The position numbers and the translations under genes were made by a program. The notes under the pieces were generated by a model. That model was given only the letters and a program-made list of their open reading frames with translations, had not been told where the DNA came from and did no database searches. This document shows, piece by piece, positions 72 through 8,760 of a DNA stretch of 64,000 bases. Source of the DNA: Methylophilales bacterium 28-44-11 (lineage in GTDB: Bacteria; Pseudomonadota; Gammaproteobacteria; Burkholderiales; Methylophilaceae); contig NCGC01000001.1 in assembly GCA_002281475.1 (NCBI GenBank), forward strand, positions 21,264-85,263, read 5' to 3'. Position 1 is the stretch's first letter. The number at the start of each line of letters is the position of its first letter.

Positions 72-971
72 TTAAAATTTCCAATAATGGTCCACCAGCA
101 AAGCCGCAAAAATCAAACTCAAGTAAAGTATCGAATATTTAAATGTACGCTTGGCTAAATCGTCTGAATATTTTCGGTATAAGCCAATCACATAGGCCAT
201 AAATATTGCATTTAGTGTGGTTGAACTCACTAAATAGATCATTCCACTCATGCCTAGTCCATAAGGCATTAAAGACACCACCACCAAAATAATGGTATAG
301 AGCAGAATGTGAAGCAAAGTAAACGCCTCACCGTGCGTCACTGGCAACATAGGCATGCCTACTTTTGCATACTCCTCACGACGATAAAGTGCGAGTGCCC
401 AAAAATGCGGTGGCGTCCATGCAAAAATAATTAAAAACATGATGAGTGATTCTGGTGATACGGTGTTATTGACTGCGGCCCAACCCAAAATCGGCGGCAT
501 TGCACCAGAGGCTCCGCCAATCACGATATTCATTGGGGTCGCTGGTTTAAGAAACACCGTATAAATGACCGCATATCCGACAAATGTGGCAAACGTTAGC
601 CACATGGTCAAGGGATTGATAAACACATAAAGAATTGCCAAACCAACACCGCCTAAAATGGTGGCAAACACCATGGTCTCCATATGAGAGACTTGACCTG
701 TAGGGAGGGGGCGTCCACGCGTACGTGCCATTACGGCATCAATTTTGTGTTCTATTAAGCAATTAAAGGCAGCGGCAGCGCCAGAAGAGAATGCAACCCC
801 GACCGTGGTTGCCACTAAAATATTCCATGGCACCATGCCAGGTGTCGCCATAAACATGCCGATTATCGCAGTAAATACAATGAGTGCTGTCACACGTGGT
901 TTACACAACGCGTAAAAATTTTTGACACTGACGCCAAACGCATCCAACTGATTTGCTAAACTCACACTCAA
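72..971 (-). CDS. cyoE: protoheme IX farnesyltransferase (heme O synthase)
   Basis: KPRV start motif, [26 protein letters not shown]; last gene of cox operon. Confidence 0.97.
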
Positions 972-1001
972 TTCAAACTCACTTTATCTCGATAATTGCC
1001 A

Positions 1002-1982
1002 TTAGGCGCGTGCAGTAATTTTGGAGTTAAACACCATCACAATGACTACCAGGAGCGCAGCACCAAAATTATGTGCCACCGCCAATACCAAAGGCAAATG
1101 TAATACTAGATTGGCTACACCCAACGAAATCTGAGCAAACAACACAACCAGCAAAGCAATACTTAATATTTTTAACTGCGCGTATTTTAAACCATTTACT
1201 GCGATAAAACCTAAATAAATCAAGGTAATGACTGCCCCCACACGATGTGTCCATTGTATGGCTGTTAATGAAGCCAAAGTGAGATTTCCACCATCCGCAC
1301 TTTGTCCGAGTTCTCGATACAAATGAAACGCATCTTTAAAATCCATAGGCGGTATCATTTGCCCATGGCAAGTCGGAAAGTCGGTACACGCCAACGCTGC
1401 ATAGTTGGTGCTGGTCCAGCCACCTAAGAAAATCTGTGCAAATAACACTAGCACTGCCAACCTAATCGCCCAATAATAAACATTTGGCAGTGCCCGACGG
1501 CTCATCTGCGCTCCCCAATGTCGATGGGCAATCCACACCAAAATGGCTAGGGTGCTCATCCCTCCCAATAAATGGGCACTGACGACTGCTGGTTTTAGCA
1601 GCATAGTGACTGTCCACATTCCCAACATGGCTTGAAACACAATTAACCCAGCTAGGCCAGTGGTAAGCCAAGGCGAGGTTTTGATGGACGTAGATTTTTT
1701 CCAACCTAATATAAAAAGTGCCAACACCATTAAGCCCAAAACCCCCGCCACATAGCGATGTATCATTTCTTTCCATGCTTTACCTGTTTCTACTGGGCTA
1801 TCCGGGTAAACTGTTTGGGCATGTACAATCGCATCCACGCTTTGTGGCACCGTCAACGTGCCGTAACATCCAGGCCAATCTGGACAGCCTAAACCAGCGT
1901 CTGAGAGTCGTACATAAGCGCCCAAGGAGACTAAACATAGCGCTGTGATTACTGCAATGATACTTAATCGTTTGAATAACAT
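1002..1982 (-). CDS. ctaA: COX15/CtaA heme A synthase
   Basis: GLGCPDWPGCYG, EMIHRY, CTDFPTC, HNFGA motifs. Confidence 0.95.
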   Translation of the reverse strand: MLFKRLSIIAVITALCLVSLGAYVRLSDAGLGCPDWPGCYGTLTVPQSVDAIVHAQTVYPDSPVETGKAWKEMIHRYVAGVLGLMVLALFILGWKKSTSIKTSPWLTTGLAGLIVFQAMLGMWTVTMLLKPAVVSAHLLGGMSTLAILVWIAHRHWGAQMSRRALPNVYYWAIRLAVLVLFAQIFLGGWTSTNYAALACTDFPTCHGQMIPPMDFKDAFHLYRELGQSADGGNLTLASLTAIQWTHRVGAVITLIYLGFIAVNGLKYAQLKILSIALLVVLFAQISLGVANLVLHLPLVLAVAHNFGAALLVVIVMVFNSKITARA

Positions 1983-1995
1983 CTTGAAAAACCTT

Positions 1996-2601
1996 TTACC
2001 CTGCCCACGAGAATTTGAGTAGACGCACTAAATCTTTGCGTATGTTGACTGCTGGTGCATCTGATGGATAGCTCATCATGATATGCCCTAGCGGGTCAAT
2101 AAAATAGATTCTATTGGTCAACATTGCATTTTCATCGCGAATATTAAATTGCTGTGCTAACGCACTGATATTGTCCGCAGATCCATTCAATATCATGATG
2201 TCAGGATACATTTCCACCAACTTTGTCACATCTGTTTGCCGAGTGATCAGCACACGTTGTACGCGCAACATGTCTTTATAAGTAGACACATGAATTTGAC
2301 GTATGTCGTGTAACTTGCTTAAGCATTGAGCTTCGCATGTTTCAGCTACGACCACCAAATTCCATTTATCACCCCAAAATTTCGTTTGAGGTACACCTTT
2401 ATAATCTGATAATGTCGCTTGTGTTTGGACTAAGCGTGGTGGCTGTATCAGTTCACCTTGGCTCTGACCGCCAGGTCGCCAATCATACTTAATCATCAAC
2501 ACTACAATCACAATGGGTACAGTAAAGAAAATAGCCATCATAATAAAAATCATGCGCCCTCTTCGTTGCTGCGCGCTATCAATCATTAATTCATTCTGCA
2601 T
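1996..2601 (-). CDS. SCO-like thioredoxin-fold membrane-anchored oxidase assembly protein
   Basis: N-terminal TM helix, CxxxC (CEAQC), YFIDPLG motif, cox operon context. Confidence 0.75.
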   Translation of the reverse strand: MQNELMIDSAQQRRGRMIFIMMAIFFTVPIVIVVLMIKYDWRPGGQSQGELIQPPRLVQTQATLSDYKGVPQTKFWGDKWNLVVVAETCEAQCLSKLHDIRQIHVSTYKDMLRVQRVLITRQTDVTKLVEMYPDIMILNGSADNISALAQQFNIRDENAMLTNRIYFIDPLGHIMMSYPSDAPAVNIRKDLVRLLKFSWAG

Positions 2602-2604
2602 GCT

Positions 2605-3357
2605 TTACTCTTCTTCTTTAATGCGACTCACGCCGGTGTATAAATATATCGCCAATGTTGCAAATGCAAATCCAAACCATTGATAGGCGTATCCTAAATT
2701 GGTCATGATTTTACTCGGCGGCATTTGCCAATTTCTAACAAAGCCACCCGAAGCCTGTTGTGGATCAAGCTTAATAATGACATCCAGCACTTGAATTGGT
2801 GCGGTCTTCTGGTATTTTTTCATATCTAAATGTTGCCAAACCATTTCCCATTTTGTGGCATCGAGTTTGCTAGTGTCAGCCTTAGCTTCAAGGGTAAATA
2901 TCTTATCAGAAGGCAACCACACCATGCCTTTTATCTCTTGCTTGCCTTCTTGGGTTTCTATATCTGGAATGGTTTGATGGTTCGCTGACCCTGCTACCCA
3001 TCCTCGGTTGACCAATACGTATGTTTGCGTATTTTCAATTTTAAAAGGGGTAATGACATGAAACCCAGCCAAGCTATTTTCAACCTGATTATCAATCAGA
3101 AACTGATATTGCGTTTCATATTGACCAAGTACTCGCACTTGTTGAAACTGCAGCGTTTGTGGGTTGGTCATATAATCAGTTAAATTTGCGGTTTGCTTAC
3201 CTAAACTTATTTGATATTGATCTTGGATAGATTGCCTTAAGGCTGCCTTGTTGTATTGCCATAAACCCAACTTTATAAAAAGTGGAATACATATCAGGAC
3301 GATCAATGTGCTTATCCAGTGGAGGTTTACTTGATAGTTCAGAAACTTAAATTGCAT
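2605..3357 (-). CDS. SURF1 family cytochrome oxidase biogenesis protein
   Basis: LGLWQ, LVNRGWV, GYAYQWF motifs. Confidence 0.93.
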   Translation of the reverse strand: MQFKFLNYQVNLHWISTLIVLICIPLFIKLGLWQYNKAALRQSIQDQYQISLGKQTANLTDYMTNPQTLQFQQVRVLGQYETQYQFLIDNQVENSLAGFHVITPFKIENTQTYVLVNRGWVAGSANHQTIPDIETQEGKQEIKGMVWLPSDKIFTLEAKADTSKLDATKWEMVWQHLDMKKYQKTAPIQVLDVIIKLDPQQASGGFVRNWQMPPSKIMTNLGYAYQWFGFAFATLAIYLYTGVSRIKEEE

Positions 3358-3407
3358 TTTTATTTAGCCAGTCGCATAATCTTTATAACTATCGTTTGGA
3401 CATTACC

Positions 3408-3608
3408 ATGTGGATTAAAATTGCAACAGTACTTGTGTTAATCATCATCATCAGCAGTCTTTTTTCGGCACTTTTCTTTTTAATCAAAGACAAAAGCGGA
3501 AATAATCGTACTGTAAAAGCTTTAACCGTGAGAATCGGACTATCCATTACGCTGTTTGTTGGGCTGATTATTGCAGCCTATTTCGGACTGATTGGGCACT
3601 CATTGTAA
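3408..3608 (+). CDS. DUF2909-type twin transmembrane helix small protein
   Basis: SLFSALFFL..RTVKALTVRIGLSI; typical opposite-strand position between coxC and SURF1. Confidence 0.85.
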   Translation: MWIKIATVLVLIIIISSLFSALFFLIKDKSGNNRTVKALTVRIGLSITLFVGLIIAAYFGLIGHSL

Positions 3609-3642
3609 TGTAATCGATTTATTGACTAAGGCACGTAAATGC

Positions 3643-3672
3643 AAAAGGGCGATGCAACAGCATCGCCCTTTT
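3643..3672. terminator. bidirectional intrinsic terminator
   Basis: AAAAGGGCGATGC-AACA-GCATCGCCCTTTT between convergent genes. Confidence 0.85.
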
Positions 3673-3684
3673 ATCTTGTATCAA

Positions 3685-4596
3685 TTAGAGCATGTATACA
3701 AAGATGAACAGACCCAACCAAACCACATCGACAAAGTGCCAATACCATGCAACACCTTCAAAACCAAAGTGATGTTCAGGCGTAAAATGACCCTTCATAC
3801 AACGCAACAAAATAACAATCAACATCAATGTACCAATGGTGACATGAAAACCATGGAAACCAGTTAACATGAAAAAGGTTGCGCCATATGCACCACTACC
3901 CAATGTTAAGCCCATTTCGGTATAGGCATGGTGATATTCCAAACCTTGGCAAATCAAGAAGGCAATACCCAACGCTACGGTTAGTGCCATACCAATAATT
4001 AATTGCTTACGGTTGTTTTTGATTAAACCCCAATGCGCCCAAGTAATGGTAGCACCAGAAGTCAATAACAAAATTGTATTGATCAGTGGTAAGCCCATCC
4101 AGTGCATCGGTTTGAATTCTGGGTTTGGCGCATATTCAGCTCCAAGTACATTACCGCCAGGACCTTGTGAAGGCCATACTGCTAAAAAGTCTTTGTAAGG
4201 AGTAATGTCTGGTGAGTAACTTGCCAAGTCTGGCACGGATAAAATACGCATATAAAACAATGCACCAAAGAATGCAGCAAAGAATGCAACTTCAGAAGCA
4301 ATAAATACCACCATACCGATACGGAACGATTTGTCTTCCCAGCTTTTGTATTTGCCGGTAATACTCTCAGTGACTACCGTACCAAGCCATTTGAACATCA
4401 TAAACAACACGACAGCTAAACCGAAATACATCATCCACTTACCAGGACCTTCAAGATAAGCCAATGAATTTCCACCGCGATCAGTCGCCACAGAAAAAAC
4501 AAAGCCAGCGGCCATCGACAACAAACCTGCTGAAAGTATGGAAGGGTATACACTTCCATGAGGAACGAAATATTGATTTTCTGAATGTGTTGCCAT
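3685..4596 (-). CDS. coxC: cytochrome c oxidase subunit III
   Basis: FIASEVAFF, TGFHGFHV, WYWHFVDVVW. Confidence 0.96.
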   Translation of the reverse strand: MATHSENQYFVPHGSVYPSILSAGLLSMAAGFVFSVATDRGGNSLAYLEGPGKWMMYFGLAVVLFMMFKWLGTVVTESITGKYKSWEDKSFRIGMVVFIASEVAFFAAFFGALFYMRILSVPDLASYSPDITPYKDFLAVWPSQGPGGNVLGAEYAPNPEFKPMHWMGLPLINTILLLTSGATITWAHWGLIKNNRKQLIIGMALTVALGIAFLICQGLEYHHAYTEMGLTLGSGAYGATFFMLTGFHGFHVTIGTLMLIVILLRCMKGHFTPEHHFGFEGVAWYWHFVDVVWLGLFIFVYML

Positions 4597-4656
4597 GTGC
4601 TAACTCCCAAGCATACTAATATTTATATTTAACAACGATTAAGTTATTGCTTTTCC

Positions 4657-4701
4657 CACTTCACTTACTAACACTTCACTTACTAACACTTCACTTACTA
4701 A
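4657..4701. repeat. tandem repeat 3 x 15 bp (CACTTCACTTACTAA)
   Basis: three perfect copies at 4657, 4672, 4687 in the ctaG-coxC spacer. Confidence 0.95.
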
Positions 4702-4713
4702 TTTGTGACTTTC

Positions 4714-5271
4714 CTAATTTAATGCTTTCTGATCTGGTGCTTTAAAAAAAGAGTACGACAATGTCATTTCTTTCACATCATCAGGCAAATCAGGACTTAC
4801 AAAAAATCTTAATGGCATTTCTTTAGTTTCACCAGACTTAAGTGCTTGGTTGACGAAACAAAAACATTCAATCTTTTTCAAATGACTTGAAGCTTTACCC
4901 GGTGTCACACTTGGCACCGCTTGACCAGACACTGTTTCACTGGTCGTATTTTTTGCTACAAAAATAACTGTTTCAATTTGTCCAGGATGCAGTGTGATAC
5001 TTGTTTGCTTAGGGTAAAAGTTCCAGCCTAACCCGGGCATCACTGCAGAAACAAATTGCACAGTAACCACTCGAGTGTTATCTACTTTAGCCTTTGCTAA
5101 CGTCGCAGCGGTATTATCAGTTTTACCATTTAATCCAGTGATCGAACAAAGCACGTCATACAATGGCACCAACGCAAATGCAAATAGCAAAGATCCAATG
5201 ACCACATACAACACTTTTATGGCTAATTTTTTGTTAGCTTTTTGTTGCTTTGTAGGTTGACTATCCGTCAA
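4714..5271 (-). CDS. ctaG: cytochrome c oxidase assembly protein CtaG/Cox11
   Basis: VPLYDVLCSITG, KIECFCF; exact start uncertain. Confidence 0.95.
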   Translation of the reverse strand: MTDSQPTKQQKANKKLAIKVLYVVIGSLLFAFALVPLYDVLCSITGLNGKTDNTAATLAKAKVDNTRVVTVQFVSAVMPGLGWNFYPKQTSITLHPGQIETVIFVAKNTTSETVSGQAVPSVTPGKASSHLKKIECFCFVNQALKSGETKEMPLRFFVSPDLPDDVKEMTLSYSFFKAPDQKALN

Positions 5272-5313
5272 TGTAGTTACTTCAATTCTTTACAAAAATT
5301 AATCAAATTGAAT

Positions 5314-5427
5314 CTAATGATTCCACACGGTAAAGATAGAAGCTACATACCAAACAAAAACAACTGCACCGATAATAAATGCAATTTTCTTATTACTAGA
5401 ACTTCTGGTTGCGTCTTTTTGTTTCAT
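5314..5427 (-). CDS. 37-aa single-TM small protein (putative oxidase small assembly protein)
   Basis: hand translation MKQKDATRSSSNKKIAFIIGAVVFVWYVASIFTVWNH*; lies between coxA and ctaG; below ORF track cutoff. Confidence 0.75.
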   Translation of the reverse strand: MKQKDATRSSSNKKIAFIIGAVVFVWYVASIFTVWNH

Positions 5428-5471
5428 TTGCAATGAGGCTTAGCATTGCTAAGCCTCTTATACCTTTATGA

Positions 5472-7064
5472 TTATTTAATTACAGGTTGCTCATTAAAGC
5501 TATGGTATGGCGGTGGTGAAGATAAAGTCCACTCCAAACCTTCTGCGCCTTCCCATACTTTATCGGTTGCTTTCTGACCACCCTTGGCACACATGATAAT
5601 GTTATAAACGAATAACAATTGTGACAAACCTAGGATAAATGCACCTACCGTTGAGATCATATTGAACTCAGTAAACTGCAAGGCATAATCTGGAATACGA
5701 CGTGGCATACCAGCTAAACCAACAAAGAATTGTGGAATAAAGGTTACATTGAATGAAATTGCAGTTAACCAGAAATGCACTTTACCCAATTTTTCGTTGT
5801 ACATATGTCCGGTCATTTTTGGTAACCAGTAATATACACCTGCCATGATACCCATAATGCCGCCAGCAAAGAGTGTGTAATGGAAGTGCGCTACCACAAA
5901 ATAACTATTATGGTATTGCGCATCTGCGGCAACGTCAGCAAGTACCAAGCCTGTTAAACCACCAATACCGAATAAGATAATCCAACCTACTGCAAACAAC
6001 ATTGGCGTTTCGAACGACATGGAGCCTTTCCACATGGTTTTAATCCAGCAGAAAAACAACACAGCTAGTGGAAGCGAAATCGCCATGGTGCTGTACATAA
6101 AGTAAAGCAATGCTGGCACCGGCATACCTGCAGTAAAGAAGTGATGCGCCCAAACAACCACAGCTAAAGCGCCAATCGCCCATAGTGAGTACACTTGTGC
6201 TTTGTAACCATACATCGGTTTACGTGAGAATGTTTGCAAGATTTGTGGAATAAAGCCCCAAACCGGCAATAACAAAATATACACTTCTGGGTGACCAAAG
6301 AACCAGAATAAATGCTGGAACATGATTGGGTCACCACCACCAGCTGCATCAAAGAAATGCGTACCAAAATGACGGTCTGTTAATAACATGGTCACAGCAC
6401 CCGCTAATACAGGAATTGTTGCCACTAACAAGAAAGCTGTAATCAACCAACCCCAAGCAAACATTGGCATTTTCATTAATGTCATACCAGGCGCACGCAT
6501 GTTGAACAGTGTCACAATGATGTTAATTGAACCCATTACTGAAGACACACCCAACAAGTGCACTGCAAAAATCGCAAAGTCCACACCAATACCGCCTTGC
6601 ACTGAAAGCGGTGGATAGAATGTCCAACCAGTCGCTAAGGCGCCATCACCAATCCCAAATAAAGCGAGCGTAAATGGCAGCGTGAGTAAAATGGCTGACG
6701 GTGGCAATAACCAAAAGCCCCAGTTATTCAAACGGGGTAATGCCATATCTGGCGCACCAATTTGTAACGGGATCATCCAGTTTGCAAAACCCGTAGCTGC
6801 TGGCATTAAAGCAGCAAAAATCATAATCAGGGCATGCACACCGATCAATTGGTTGTAAAAGTCTGGGTTCATCAATTGCAAGCCTGGTCTAAACAACTCA
6901 GCTCGAATACCCAAAACCATCAAACCACCCACTAAAAACATCACCAAAGAAAAGGTTAAATACATCGTACCAATGTCTTTGTGATTTGTTGTTGTCAACC
7001 AACGCATAATACCAGTTGGGTGATCACTGTGCTCTTCATGATGCGCTACAGTTGTAGTACTCAT
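5472..7064 (-). CDS. coxA: cytochrome c oxidase subunit I (A1-type GHPEVY; atypical K-channel)
   Basis: TTNHKDIG, GHPEVY, WAHH, AHFHY, GMPRR. Confidence 0.98.
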   Translation of the reverse strand: MSTTTVAHHEEHSDHPTGIMRWLTTTNHKDIGTMYLTFSLVMFLVGGLMVLGIRAELFRPGLQLMNPDFYNQLIGVHALIMIFAALMPAATGFANWMIPLQIGAPDMALPRLNNWGFWLLPPSAILLTLPFTLALFGIGDGALATGWTFYPPLSVQGGIGVDFAIFAVHLLGVSSVMGSINIIVTLFNMRAPGMTLMKMPMFAWGWLITAFLLVATIPVLAGAVTMLLTDRHFGTHFFDAAGGGDPIMFQHLFWFFGHPEVYILLLPVWGFIPQILQTFSRKPMYGYKAQVYSLWAIGALAVVVWAHHFFTAGMPVPALLYFMYSTMAISLPLAVLFFCWIKTMWKGSMSFETPMLFAVGWIILFGIGGLTGLVLADVAADAQYHNSYFVVAHFHYTLFAGGIMGIMAGVYYWLPKMTGHMYNEKLGKVHFWLTAISFNVTFIPQFFVGLAGMPRRIPDYALQFTEFNMISTVGAFILGLSQLLFVYNIIMCAKGGQKATDKVWEGAEGLEWTLSSPPPYHSFNEQPVIK

Positions 7065-7108
7065 AATGCTCTCCTAATCGCCTTCAGAACTATTTAAAAA
7101 ATACAAAA

Positions 7109-8275
7109 TTACTCACGTGCCGCTTTTACTTGAGCAGGTTGCACAATTGGATCTACTGTAGCAGCATTGCCAAGCGCTTGTCTTTCATAGGTAATGACTG
7201 CAGCTATTTCTGTATCGTTTAATGTAGCTTTCCATGCCGGCATCATGCCTTTACCATTCAACAAACGATCCATGTGACTGTCTTTTAAATATTTGCCGTC
7301 GGCGCCAAATACTGGGCCTAGAGCAATTTTGCTTCCTGTTAACGCAGGGAATGCAGGTGGTAAACCAGCACCTGATACTTGATGGCAAACAGCACAATTT
7401 TTCTCATAGACTGTTTTACCGAGTGCAACCAAATCATCTTTGGTCATTTCTTTGATTTCATTTGCGGCTTTTTGCTCTTCTTGTTTTTTCGCAGCCCATA
7501 CTTTGTATTCCTCCATTGGCACTGCATTGACAACAACTGGCATGTAGCCATGACCTTTACCACATAATTCTTTACACTGTCCGCGATAAGTGCCCGCTTT
7601 TTCAACTTGCACCCATGTTTCACGAATAAAGCCAGGTACTGCCACACGTGAAGAACCAAACTGTGGAACCCACCAGTTATGTAACACATCTGAAGCGGTC
7701 ATTAAAATACGGACTTTTTCACCAACTGGTAGCACCAAAGGATTGTCCACTTCTAATAGATAGTTTTCGCCTTTTTCAGCCTTGTTATGTAATTGATCAT
7801 CCGAAGTGGTGAGATTACTTACAAATTTAACACCTTTGGCATCACCATCTAGGTATTCATACTGCCAACGCCATTGCGAACCAGTAATCTTAATCACCAT
7901 GGTTGATTTGTCACGTGTATCTTCCATCATCACCACACTGTGGTAGGCAGGAATACCCATGATGACAAAGTCAATCAACAGTAAAATAGCAAAAGGAATA
8001 AGGGTCCAGAAAATTTCAACCGCTGTTGATGGTGCCTTATCAGCAACCGCTTGATAACCTTTGCTTTTACGATGTGCAAAGATTGAGTAAATCATGATAG
8101 CCAATACCGCGAAGAAAATAATCGCGGTAATAATCATAAATTTATTGTGTACATGCAATGTATCTAACGCCATTGGAGTCACTGGCTCAGGAAAGTTCCA
8201 ACTGTAATCCGCAAACACATTGAGCGAAGCCAGCAATCCCGCCAAACCTACCCCAATTTTTTTAAACACTTGCAT
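7109..8275 (-). CDS. coxB: cytochrome c oxidase subunit II with fused C-terminal cytochrome c (caa3-type)
   Basis: CuA motif H...CKELCGKGHGYM; CAVCH heme c motif; GGAG RBS before MQVFKK. Confidence 0.96.
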   Translation of the reverse strand: MQVFKKIGVGLAGLLASLNVFADYSWNFPEPVTPMALDTLHVHNKFMIITAIIFFAVLAIMIYSIFAHRKSKGYQAVADKAPSTAVEIFWTLIPFAILLLIDFVIMGIPAYHSVVMMEDTRDKSTMVIKITGSQWRWQYEYLDGDAKGVKFVSNLTTSDDQLHNKAEKGENYLLEVDNPLVLPVGEKVRILMTASDVLHNWWVPQFGSSRVAVPGFIRETWVQVEKAGTYRGQCKELCGKGHGYMPVVVNAVPMEEYKVWAAKKQEEQKAANEIKEMTKDDLVALGKTVYEKNCAVCHQVSGAGLPPAFPALTGSKIALGPVFGADGKYLKDSHMDRLLNGKGMMPAWKATLNDTEIAAVITYERQALGNAATVDPIVQPAQVKAARE

Positions 8276-8298
8276 CTCAAACGCTCCAAAAATCAAAT

Positions 8299-8760
8299 TT
8301 AGTTAATGTTTTTTAGTTTCTTTTTAAGCTCTCGCATCAGAACTATTCTTTGCTCATCATCGATAAAATATTTACCAAACTCTACTTCTTTACCGTGTGA
8401 ACCAATCATCAGCGCATTTTTACCCCCCACCGACTCTTTCACACTTACTTGCGTCCAATAGCGCTGAAATACATCAGCACTTGTTGCGCGACTACTTTTT
8501 TTCTCTACTAACACAGTATCACCGTCAATGGTGATACTTTCAAAATCTGCGGCATGGGCCCTGATGTGGTAGAACGCCAATGCAAAGGCCAAAAGCTCTA
8601 AGCCAGCGAATGGTAACACCAACCAAGCCCCTATGTGAGTAAAACCGATTGCAACTACCAATGCAATCACCCCAAGTACAGCCATTAACTTCATCGCACC
8701 TTCAGAGGACAGCGAATTATTTGGCCGTGCAATAATTTTGTAATCTAATACCGATAACAT
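8299..8760 (-). CDS. DUF2244 family membrane protein
   Basis: RPNNSLS, GAWLVLPFAGLE, VEFGKYF; typical first gene of betaproteobacterial cox operon. Confidence 0.85.
   Translation of the reverse strand: MLSVLDYKIIARPNNSLSSEGAMKLMAVLGVIALVVAIGFTHIGAWLVLPFAGLELLAFALAFYHIRAHAADFESITIDGDTVLVEKKSSRATSADVFQRYWTQVSVKESVGGKNALMIGSHGKEVEFGKYFIDDEQRIVLMRELKKKLKNIN

What the first reader, a model, noticed from the sequence alone, without database searches (positions are those of the whole stretch)
6040..6300. A-family cytochrome c oxidase that has lost the K proton channel
Seen: subunit I keeps all six His ligands, the GHPEVY Glu and Tyr, and the D-channel entry (PDMALPRLNN). Helix VIII reads ISLPLAVLFFCW where canonical enzymes read IAVPTG(I/V)K(I/V)F(S/N)W, and helix VI reads PVWGFIPQ instead of PAFGIVS. 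In R. sphaeroides numbering these are S299P, T359L, K362L and S365C (here P273, L333, L336, C339). The subunit II entry Glu (VEIFWT) is retained. Established: K362 is near-invariant in A-family oxidases and K362M blocks steady-state O2 turnover. Several coordinated hydrophobic substitutions in an otherwise intact operon argue against decay or sequencing error. Inference: this is either a D-channel-only oxidase with altered pumping stoichiometry or one using a new proton path. I cannot tell whether it is already described for this lineage.
Basis: partly seen in the sequence, partly recalled or inferred. Interest (0 to 1): 0.75.

Follow-up and report, generated by a model that had tools for sequence, protein, structure and literature searches.

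The report
Cytochrome oxidase lacking K-channel lysine
This methylotroph's main oxygen-respiring enzyme really does lack the "K" proton channel that textbooks call essential, as do its relatives in a large, strongly conserved bacterial lineage, so it offers a natural test of why these enzymes need two proton channels; similar losses are already catalogued in other lineages.

Summary
CoxA (5472-7064, minus strand) keeps all six His ligands, Glu260, Tyr262 and the full D-channel. The K-pathway positions S299/T359/K362/S365 (R. sphaeroides numbering) are Pro273/Leu333/Leu336/Cys339.

It is neither an error nor decay:
- dN/dS is 0.01-0.06, and the Leu codons vary synonymously.
- 97 of the 118 nearest protein clusters share the change and form one well-supported clade inside canonical A1 oxidases.
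- Hosts include Methylotenera, Methylophilus, Dechloromonas, Zoogloea, Rhodoferax and Methylovirgula.
- In ten near-complete carrier genomes it is the only A-family oxidase, always alongside cbb3.
- Other Methylophilaceae carry a canonical-Lys paralogue, and four carry both.

The clade has a fixed package of changes: Y285, K/R288, Q290, S330, C339, G366, D377 and F446, with N/H at the Mg ligand D412. Most of these lie in helices VI-IX. Distant Lys-less oxidases share S330, F446 and the loss of D412.

My best reading (about 40%) is a re-lined, lysine-free path in the same pore. A D-channel-only enzyme is about 30%.

A-family oxidases without a K-channel are already catalogued (Degli Esposti 2020/2021). 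A 2026 preprint flags an oxidase with the same coxBA11C operon in Ferrigenium. This scan has also noted other Lys-less lineages on other DNA. I class it as a new member of a known kind, biochemically untested.

The parts
8299..8760 (-). DUF2244 membrane protein, first gene of the cluster
   Evidence: Pfam PF10003, E 1.4e-38. The same gene precedes both the Lys-less and the canonical operon in genome G415.
7109..8296 (-). CoxB: subunit II with CuA site and a C-terminal cytochrome c domain (caa3-type). Glu94 (8015-8017) is at the K-entry position.
   Evidence: Pfam COX2, COX2_TM and Cytochrom_C; alignment to P. denitrificans subunit II; codons checked.
5472..7064 (-). CoxA: subunit I, A1-type, without the canonical K pathway
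   Evidence: Pfam COX1, 504 bits. TIGR02891 scores 686 against a cut-off of 670.75. AF2 model has pLDDT 84.8 and TM 0.91 to 7ATE/1M56.
6040..6300 (-).
6279..6293 (-). His258, Glu260, Tyr262 (HPEVY): CuB ligand, D-channel end Glu and cross-link Tyr, all retained
6747..6749 (-). Asp106, the D-channel entrance (R. sphaeroides D132), retained
   Evidence: Invariant; codon.
6246..6248 (-). Pro273 at the S299 position
   Evidence: Pro in 88 of 97 clade members against Ser in 21 of 21 canonical relatives.
6048..6077 (-). Helix VIII core: Ser330 (A356), Leu333 (T359), Ala334 (G360), Leu336 (K362), Phe337, Cys339 (S365)
   Evidence: Ser330 and Cys339 are 100%, Leu/Met336 100% and Leu/Val333 97% in the clade; synonymous codon variation.
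6195..6212 (-). Tyr285, Lys288, Gln290: clade-specific polar residues at the N-side mouth (loop VI-VII and start of helix VII)
   Evidence: Tyr 88%, Lys/Arg 92% and Gln 99% in the clade, against Phe, non-basic residues and Met in canonical relatives.
6039..6041 (-). Lys342 (R. sphaeroides A368 position), found only in this subgroup and there together with CoxB Glu94
5727..5936 (-). P-side changes: Asp377, Asn386 (Mg ligand D412 position), Phe446 (H472 position)
   Evidence: Asp377 100%, Phe446 97% and Asn/His386 99% in the clade, against Ile/Val, His and Asp in canonical relatives.
5314..5433 (-). 39-aa single-helix ORF between coxA and ctaG
   Evidence: ORF list; not tested further.
4714..5271 (-). 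CtaG/Cox11, the CuB insertion factor
   Evidence: Pfam PF04442, E 6e-51.
3685..4596 (-). CoxC, subunit III
   Evidence: Pfam COX3, E 9e-59.
2605..3357 (-). SURF1 assembly factor
   Evidence: Pfam PF02104.
1996..2601 (-). 201-aa protein with no Pfam family and a weak, sub-threshold match to the PA0111/PP0108 redox-disulfide family
   Evidence: NCBIfam NF058629 scores 45 bits against a cut-off of 230. A gene sits in the same position in G415.
1002..1982 (-). CtaA, haem A synthase
   Evidence: Pfam PF02628. The residues aligned with the Glu and His residues of Aquifex CtaA 8AW5, taken to correspond to B. subtilis E57, H60 and H123, are kept.
72..971 (-). CtaB, haem O synthase
   Evidence: Pfam UbiA.

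Best explanation
This is a working caa3-type cytochrome c oxidase. It belongs to an old, monophyletic subclade of A1 oxidases in which the canonical K pathway (subunit II Glu, S299, K362, T359) has been dismantled and the D pathway left untouched. Shown: the loss itself, its strict conservation, purifying selection, a single origin inside canonical relatives, and its status as the only A-family oxidase in ten carrier genomes. Inferred: protons for the reductive half of the cycle still enter through the same pore (helices VI-IX), along a re-lined, lysine-free, water-based route. Its mouth would be formed by the clade-specific His/Gln274, Tyr285, Lys/Arg288, Gln290, Cys339 and the polar Gln/Glu of subunit II. 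Its upper end would be Ser301 (Ala in this window's own protein), Ser330 and Tyr262. Space for water would come from large-to-small changes on helices VII and IX (G298, V302, V363, G366, V374). This would resemble the lysine-free K-analogue channels of B- and C-family oxidases. The accompanying P-side changes (Asp377, Asn386, Phe446) remove the canonical Mg site and may retune water or proton exit.
For: The K-path residues are replaced while the ligands and D-channel are invariant. Selection is strong: dN/dS 0.011-0.064, with six to seven Leu codons at 333 and 336. The clade is monophyletic with support 100, or 99 when the trait columns are left out, and nests among canonical Lys relatives. 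It is the sole A-family enzyme in 10 of 10 near-complete carriers and in this genome. In a genome that has both paralogues, the assembly genes ctaG, SURF1, ctaA and ctaB sit with the Lys-less operon. Of 31 clade-defining substitutions, 21 fall in residues 265-377 (helices VI-IX), where about 6.6 would be expected (p = 4e-8). The new polar residues there are nearly invariant: Gln290 99%, Cys339 100%, Ser330 100%, Lys/Arg288 92%, Tyr285 88%. The subunit II entry position stays polar (Gln or Glu in 86 of 86 loci) instead of drifting to hydrophobic residues. Counting back from the CuB His pair, Gln290 and Ser293 fall at the helix VII positions that Degli Esposti's table aligns with S244 and H247 of the cbb3 K-analogue channel.
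Against: No coordinates were available, so no cavity or water path has been shown. At the depth of K362/T359, helices VI and VIII carry only Leu, Leu, Phe, Pro and (in this protein) Trp269, and this window's own protein has Ala301 where most of the clade has Ser. A stretch of roughly 12 Å (my own estimate from helix rise) would have to be bridged by water alone. Other, independent Lys-less lineages share Ser330, a basic residue at 288 and Phe446, but not Gln290, Gly366 or, except in a few, Cys339. Any mechanism common to all of them therefore cannot rest on those residues. No enzyme of this clade has been assayed, as far as my searches found.
Confidence: 0.4

Rival explanations
1. D-channel-only oxidase. 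The K pore is sealed, and all eight protons per O2 (substrate and pumped) enter through the intact D pathway via Glu260. The new polar residues at the N-side mouth only re-stabilise packing and the subunit I/II interface.
For: Every hydroxyl or amine of the canonical route, from entrance to T359, is gone, and the entry Glu is not conserved. The D-channel is invariant. Several separate Lys-less islands (nine in the FastTree tree) show no common polar replacement in the lower half of the pore. Degli Esposti et al. reached the same reading for the rus-operon oxidases.
Against: Cys339 and Gln290 are invariant, the subunit II entry position stays polar, and substitutions are concentrated in helices VI-IX; all three are hard to explain by abandonment alone. 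No clade-specific change was found around Glu260 or in helices I-V that could retune D-channel delivery. In R. sphaeroides, K362M nearly abolishes turnover although the D path is intact (established knowledge).
Confidence: 0.3
2. Some substrate protons are taken from the periplasmic side, as in cNOR, through a P-side region rebuilt by loss of the Mg site. This would give a lower charge-per-electron ratio, suited to donors that enter at cytochrome c level.
For: Loss of the K-path Lys goes together with loss of the Mg ligand Asp (27/31 vs 5/83) and of His446 (28/31 vs 13/83) across diverse A-family rows. In this clade both changes, plus a new invariant Asp377, arose on the same stem branch. Many hosts oxidise methanol, Fe(II) or sulfur compounds through periplasmic cytochrome c (host names; their physiology from my own knowledge).
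Against: This is correlation only. The phylogenetically corrected pair test is underpowered (six pairs, p 0.06-0.125). From memory, Mg-less bo3 oxidases keep their K-channel. No path has been modelled.
Confidence: 0.1
3. Lys342 of this subgroup, together with the retained CoxB Glu94, restores a canonical-type lysine pathway.
For: Lys or Arg at 342 co-occurs perfectly with Glu in CoxB across 39 loci, against Ala with Gln in 37 loci.
Against: Position 342 corresponds to R. sphaeroides A368, six residues towards the N side of K362, near the membrane surface. Leu333 and Leu336 remain above it. The pair occurs in one subgroup only, so it counts as a single event. A surface salt bridge is the simpler reading.
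Confidence: 0.03
4. A decaying gene, an assembly or sequencing artefact, or a non-oxygen-reducing relative such as a nitric oxide reductase.
For: None beyond the missing lysine; the genome is an 88%-complete MAG.
Against: dN/dS is 0.01-0.06. The same residues occur in more than 100 independent assemblies, including isolates such as Methylotenera mobilis JLW8. The three CuB His residues, the cross-link Tyr and CuA are intact, whereas the NOR families lack the Tyr. A full assembly operon is present.
Confidence: 0.02

Closest known systems
Canonical A1-type aa3/caa3 cytochrome c oxidases (R. sphaeroides 1M56, P. denitrificans 1AR1/7ATE), and the canonical-Lys paralogue of other Methylophilaceae
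   Same: Same fold (TM 0.91), six His ligands, HPEVY Glu and Tyr, complete D-channel, CuA subunit II, subunit III, and the CtaG/SURF1/CtaA/CtaB assembly set. It is 62-71% identical to its nearest canonical relatives.
   Different: S299, T359, K362 and S365 are replaced by Pro, Leu, Leu and Cys. The Mg ligand Asp is Asn. His at the H472 position is Phe. A fixed set of further changes lies in helices VI-IX.
A-family oxidases with a 'modified' K-channel catalogued by Degli Esposti et al. (bioRxiv 10.1101/2020.03.01.968255; PMC8239418, table for Fig. S7): rus-operon A2 oxidases of Acidithiobacillus and Acidiferrobacter, Thioclava, the CyoCAB subtype, Elusimicrobia, Thermoplasmatales
   Same: A hydrophobic residue at the Lys position, loss of the helix VI Ser, a non-conserved subunit II Glu, and a conserved D-channel. 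The Elusimicrobia entries also pair Ile at K354 with Cys at S357.
   Different: Many of the listed Lys-less lineages (the rus-operon, Thioclava and CyoCAB groups) are A2-type, and the authors place the rus-operon group and its relatives deep in the tree. This clade is A1, nested within canonical proteobacterial (a)b-type oxidases that their Table S1 lists as 'K-channel: yes', and it is absent from their table. T351 is kept in most of their cases but lost here.
[quoted passage not shown]
   Same: Same operon type in a related host (per the preprint, F. straubiae also has a cbb3 oxidase and an eNOR), and the same observation, that subunits I and II lack the K-channel, left unexplained.
   Different: I could not compare the sequences, so membership in the same clade is inferred. 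The preprint gives no clade survey, no replacement residues and no mechanism.
K-analogue channels of B-family (T. thermophilus ba3) and C-family (cbb3) oxidases
   Same: Proton input through the same pore without any lysine, using Ser, Thr and Tyr residues and water, partly on helix VII. This is the working model proposed here.
   Different: Those enzymes lack a D-channel and use this one pore for all protons. Here the D-channel is intact, and the mid-membrane part of the pore has no hydroxyl side chains on helices VI and VIII.

Membership tests
A-family (A1) haem-copper oxygen reductase, subunit I | Six His ligands of haem a, haem a3 and CuB | tested here: met
   His77, 258, 307, 308, 393 and 395 are invariant in 62 relatives and aligned to 1M56_A.
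A-family (A1) haem-copper oxygen reductase, subunit I | Cross-link Tyr on helix VI and the A1 Glu (GHPEVY) | tested here: met
   Glu260 and Tyr262.
A-family (A1) haem-copper oxygen reductase, subunit I | D-channel (R. sphaeroides D132, N121, N139, N207, S200/S201) | tested here: met
   Asp106, Asn95, Asn113, Asn181 and Ser174/175 are invariant.
A-family (A1) haem-copper oxygen reductase, subunit I | K-channel (S299, K362, T359, with S365) | tested here: not met
   Pro273, Leu336, Leu333 and Cys339.
A-family (A1) haem-copper oxygen reductase, subunit I | Curated family model score | tested here: met
   TIGR02891 CtaD_CoxA scores 686 bits against a cut-off of 670.75; Pfam COX1 scores 504 bits.
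A-family (A1) haem-copper oxygen reductase, subunit I | Mg site ligands H411 and D412 | tested here: not met
   His385 is kept, but Asn386 replaces the Asp. Metal content is not testable here.
caa3-type subunit II | CuA ligands plus a fused CxxCH cytochrome c domain | tested here: met
   Pfam COX2 and Cytochrom_C. The CuA-site motif C-x-E-x-C-G-x-x-H-x-x-M and one CxxCH are present in all 11 CoxB checked.
A-family oxidases with modified K-channel (Degli Esposti 2021 scheme) | Non-ionisable residue at K354, with substitutions at S291 and T351 | tested here: met
   Leu336, Pro273 and Leu333.
A-family oxidases with modified K-channel (Degli Esposti 2021 scheme) | Substitution of the subunit II entry Glu (E78) | tested here: not met
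   Glu94 is kept in this window. It is Gln in 37 of 76 loci and in 9 of 10 carriers from five families.
Haem-copper nitric oxide reductases (cNOR, qNOR, eNOR, sNOR and others) | No cross-link Tyr; altered CuB/FeB site | tested here: not met
   The Tyr and the three CuB His residues are present. The NOR families lack the Tyr according to PMC11214002. Separate NorB-like genes occur in carrier genomes.

The most novel reading that the evidence does not exclude
A widespread A1-type oxidase clade works with no N-side proton path through pore B at all. It would either feed every proton through the D-channel or draw part of the substrate protons from the periplasm. The repeated coupling of K-path loss with loss of the Mg site (D412, H472) and gain of Ser at position 356 in independent lineages would then mark a second, so far unrecognised operating mode of A-family oxidases, with a different H+/e- ratio.
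Probability: 0.3. Interest if true: 0.8.

Novelty: new member of a known kind. Interest (0 to 1): 0.55.

Why it matters
The K-pathway lysine is treated as indispensable in A-family oxidases, and why these enzymes need two input channels when B and C families manage with one is still open. Here the lysine-free form is the only A-type oxidase of cultivable, non-pathogenic bacteria (Methylotenera mobilis JLW8, Methylophilus, Methylovorus, Dechloromonas, Zoogloea). A canonical paralogue 62-67% identical exists in sister genomes, and sometimes in the same genome. That gives a ready-made natural comparison for turnover, haem a3 reduction kinetics and H+/e- stoichiometry. It also matters for annotation. 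These enzymes pass the equivalog model and are routinely read as ordinary 'low-affinity, fully pumping aa3', an assumption built into energy budgets of methylotrophs, polyphosphate accumulators and iron oxidisers.

Tried and rejected
1. Sequencing error or pseudogene: rejected on dN/dS, synonymous codon variation and more than 100 independent assemblies.
2. Lys342 as a compensating lysine: rejected as a general answer. It is confined to one subgroup, lies six residues towards the N side, and co-occurs with CoxB Glu94, which suggests a surface pair.
3. A link to the variant haem A synthase (E57K/H123N) that Degli Esposti reports in Accumulibacter and Acidiferrobacteraceae: not supported. The residues aligned with the Glu and His residues of Aquifex CtaA 8AW5, taken to correspond to B. 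subtilis E57, H60 and H123, are kept in this window's CtaA.
4. NOR identity: rejected, because the Tyr and CuB His residues are intact.
5. A lineage-specific loss in Methylophilaceae: rejected. The clade is much wider, and the family also holds canonical paralogues.
6. 3D channel analysis: the AF2 model was built, but its coordinates are not exposed, so no cavity or hydration analysis was possible.
CoxB of the deepest Lys-less branch and of the canonical sister proteins could not be fetched that way; I used genome-search loci instead.
8. The 50%-identity representative search merges the clade with canonical relatives, so it could not size the clade. It was useful only for distant Lys-less lineages.
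9. Literature on purified Methylophilus aa3: nothing relevant is searchable in the library.
Full report
**What is there.** The minus strand of window 72-8760 carries a complete A-type oxidase cluster. Its gene order is DUF2244, coxB (CuA plus a fused cytochrome c domain), coxA, a 39-aa membrane ORF, ctaG, coxC, SURF1, a 201-aa protein without a Pfam family, ctaA and ctaB. The flagged stretch 6040-6300 encodes residues about 256-342 of the 530-aa CoxA. The genome is a 2.24-Mb, 88%-complete MAG. Its closest named relatives are Methylophilaceae, with Methylotenera and Methylophilus at 93-98% CoxA identity. Its only other haem-copper oxidase is a cbb3.

**Check of the observation.** The phmmer alignment to R. 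sphaeroides subunit I gives these correspondences: S299 to Pro273, T359 to Leu333, G360 to Ala334, K362 to Leu336 and S365 to Cys339 (codons). The six His ligands, Glu260, Tyr262 and the D-channel residues (Asn95, Asp106, Asn113/114, Ser174/175, Asn181) are invariant in an alignment of 62 relatives. CoxB Glu94 aligns with the K-entry Glu of P. denitrificans subunit II. CoxA passes the NCBIfam CtaD_CoxA equivalog, at 686 bits against a cut-off of 670.75. Its AF2 model (pLDDT 84.8) superposes on solved A-type oxidases at TM 0.91. All of those have the lysine, and none is more than 52% identical.

**Not an error, not decay.**
- Pairwise dN/dS of coxA against 50 Methylophilaceae loci is 0.011-0.064, with saturated dS.
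- Leu333 and Leu336 are written with six to seven different codons, and Cys339 with both of its codons.
- The same residues are found in all 80 named genome loci and in 97 of the 118 closest 90%-identity clusters.

**A clade, not a lineage oddity.**
- In a FastTree of 125 rows, the Lys-less proteins form one clade (support 100). It is nested among canonical-Lys gamma- and betaproteobacterial A1 oxidases, and two canonical proteins are its sister.
- With all trait columns removed, the clade is still recovered, with support 99.
- Its earliest branch still has Thr at the T359 position.
- Named hosts are Methylotenera (including M. mobilis JLW8), Methylophilus, Methylovorus, Ca. Methylopumilus, Dechloromonas, Zoogloea, Azonexus, Accumulibacter, Sulfurisoma, Denitratisoma, Sulfuricella, Rhodoferax, Ideonella, Acidiferrobacterales, Chromatiales and the alphaproteobacterium Methylovirgula.
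- A motif scan of 401 genomes of the order found the motif in 16, concentrated in a few families.
- In ten near-complete carriers it is the only A-family enzyme, always with one or two cbb3 oxidases and often a NOR.

**Distribution within the family.** I sampled 61 Methylophilaceae genomes.
- 37 have the Lys-less type.
- 17 have a canonical paralogue (62-67% identical, all with PTGVKVFNW). Four of these carry both types and 13 carry only the canonical one.
- In genome G415, which has both, the canonical operon is only DUF2244-coxB-coxA-coxC. The Lys-less operon carries ctaG, SURF1, ctaA and ctaB.

**What changed with the lysine.** All members share a package acquired on the stem branch:
- Tyr285 (canonical Phe)
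- Lys/Arg288
- Ala289
- Gln290 (canonical Met; 99%)
- Ser330 (canonical Ala; 100%)
- Ala334
- Leu/Met336
- Phe337
- Cys339 (canonical Asn; 100%)
- Gly366
- Asp377 (100%)
- Phe446 (canonical His; 97%)
- Usually also Pro273, Leu/Val333 and Asn/His at the Mg ligand D412

Of 31 clade-defining substitutions, 21 lie in residues 265-377, that is helices VI-IX, the pore that holds the K-channel. About 6.6 would be expected there (p = 4e-8). Helices I-V, which hold the D-channel, are almost untouched.

The subunit II entry Glu is Glu only in the Methylotenera/Methylophilus subgroup. There it co-occurs with CoxA Lys/Arg342. It is Gln everywhere else, including nine of ten carriers from five families.

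**A recurrent syndrome.** I compared 134 diverse A-family rows: 50%-cluster representatives plus relatives. Of these, 88 have Lys and 31 have a hydrophobic residue. A separate clade has Gln while keeping Thr/Ser at the T359 position.

| Feature | Hydrophobic rows | Lys rows |
|---|---|---|
| Ser at 330 | 27/31 | 2/83 |
| No His at 446 | 28/31 | 13/83 |
| No Asp at 386 | 27/31 | 5/83 |
| Basic residue at 288 | 26/31 | 18/83 |
| No hydroxyl at 273 | 25/31 | 2/83 |

On a tree built without these columns, rows without the Lys form nine separate islands, one of them the Gln-type clade. The clade studied here is clearly independent of the others. The raw Fisher p-values are tiny but ignore relatedness. 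The independent-pairs test has only six pairs and gives p 0.06-0.125, with b going the opposite way in at most about 0.2 of the six pairs on average. I read this as a probable convergent coupling between K-path loss, a Ser one turn above T359, and loss of the Mg site. It is suggestive, not proven.

**Mechanism.** The loss and its conservation are shown. How protons reach the binuclear centre in the reductive phase is inferred.

I favour a re-lined, lysine-free route in the same pore (about 40%) for four reasons:
- The new polar residues at its N-side half are nearly invariant.
- The subunit II entry position stays polar.
- Five large-to-small changes on helices VII and IX could house water.
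- Gln290 and Ser293 sit at helix VII positions used by the cbb3 K-analogue channel.

Against this reading:
- The K362/T359 level is purely hydrophobic on helices VI and VIII.
- This protein has Ala301 where most of the clade has Ser.
- No coordinates were available to test hydration.

A D-channel-only enzyme (about 30%) fits the complete dismantling of the route. It also fits the lack of any shared lower-pore replacement among independent Lys-less lineages. Partial proton supply from the periplasm (about 10%) is prompted by the coupled P-side changes.

**Comparison with the literature.** Degli Esposti and co-workers described A-family COX1/COX2 without a functional K-channel, first in acidophilic iron oxidisers and then in a table of many lineages. 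They concluded that the D-channel is kept. This clade is not in their table, and their Table S1 lists the proteobacterial (a)b subtype as having the channel. A May 2026 preprint on Ferrigenium straubiae devotes a short section to an 'unconventional aa3-type' oxidase with the same coxBA11C operon. It states that subunits I and II lack the K-channel and that the meaning is unclear. Text searches of the 2020 Degli Esposti preprint found no mention of magnesium or Mg2+, and I found no functional data for any member. Earlier notes of this scan record other Lys-less oxidase lineages on other DNA, and a first-reader note on the Mg-site residues of this same operon.

**Verdict.** The feature is a real, selected, widespread variant. 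As a kind it is already known, so I file it as a new member of a known kind. Its value is as a tractable natural experiment on the role of the K pathway, and the possible coupling with loss of the Mg site is worth a proper test.

Noticed in passing
window 6039-6041 (CoxA Lys342) and 8015-8017 (CoxB Glu94): Lys/Arg342 in CoxA and Glu at the CoxB K-entry position co-occur perfectly: 39 loci have both, and 37 loci have Ala with Gln. This looks like a subgroup-specific charge pair at the N-side subunit I/II interface, but it is one phylogenetic event.
   Followed up: partly
window 5907-5909 (CoxA Asn386), 5727-5729 (Phe446), 5934-5936 (Asp377), 7643-7645 (CoxB Val218): The canonical Mg-site Asp and the His at the H472 position are lost clade-wide, and a new invariant Asp377 appears.
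   Followed up: partly
L162 and L163 (genome G415, contig C30, about 60 kb apart): One Methylophilaceae genome carries both a canonical-Lys operon (four genes, no assembly factors) and the Lys-less operon with ctaG, SURF1, ctaA and ctaB. Three other genomes also have both paralogues.
   Followed up: partly
L087/L088 (G076), L098/L105 (G018), L102/L107 (G041): In three carrier genomes the Lys-less aa3 operon and the cbb3 ccoN gene lie only about 8-9 kb apart on the same contig.
   Followed up: no
proteins P0200, P0213, P0218-P0221, P0227, P0241, P0243, P0244, P0257: A separate clade of long (about 650-850 aa) A-family subunit I proteins has Gln at the lysine position. It keeps Thr/Ser at the T359 position and the Mg-site Asp and His, so it is a different kind of K-channel variant.
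   Followed up: no
window 5314-5433 (minus) and 1996-2601 (minus): A 39-aa single-helix ORF lies between coxA and ctaG. A 201-aa protein between SURF1 and ctaA has only a sub-threshold match to the PA0111/PP0108 redox-disulfide family. Both are presumably oxidase biogenesis accessories.
   Followed up: no
protein cluster of P0086: The Lys-less clade also occurs in the alphaproteobacterial methylotroph Methylovirgula ligni, which implies horizontal transfer out of the Beta/Gamma group.
   Followed up: no
clusters of P0055, P0013 and P0052: Several database entries of this A-type clade are misnamed 'cbb3-type cytochrome c oxidase subunit I'.
   Followed up: no
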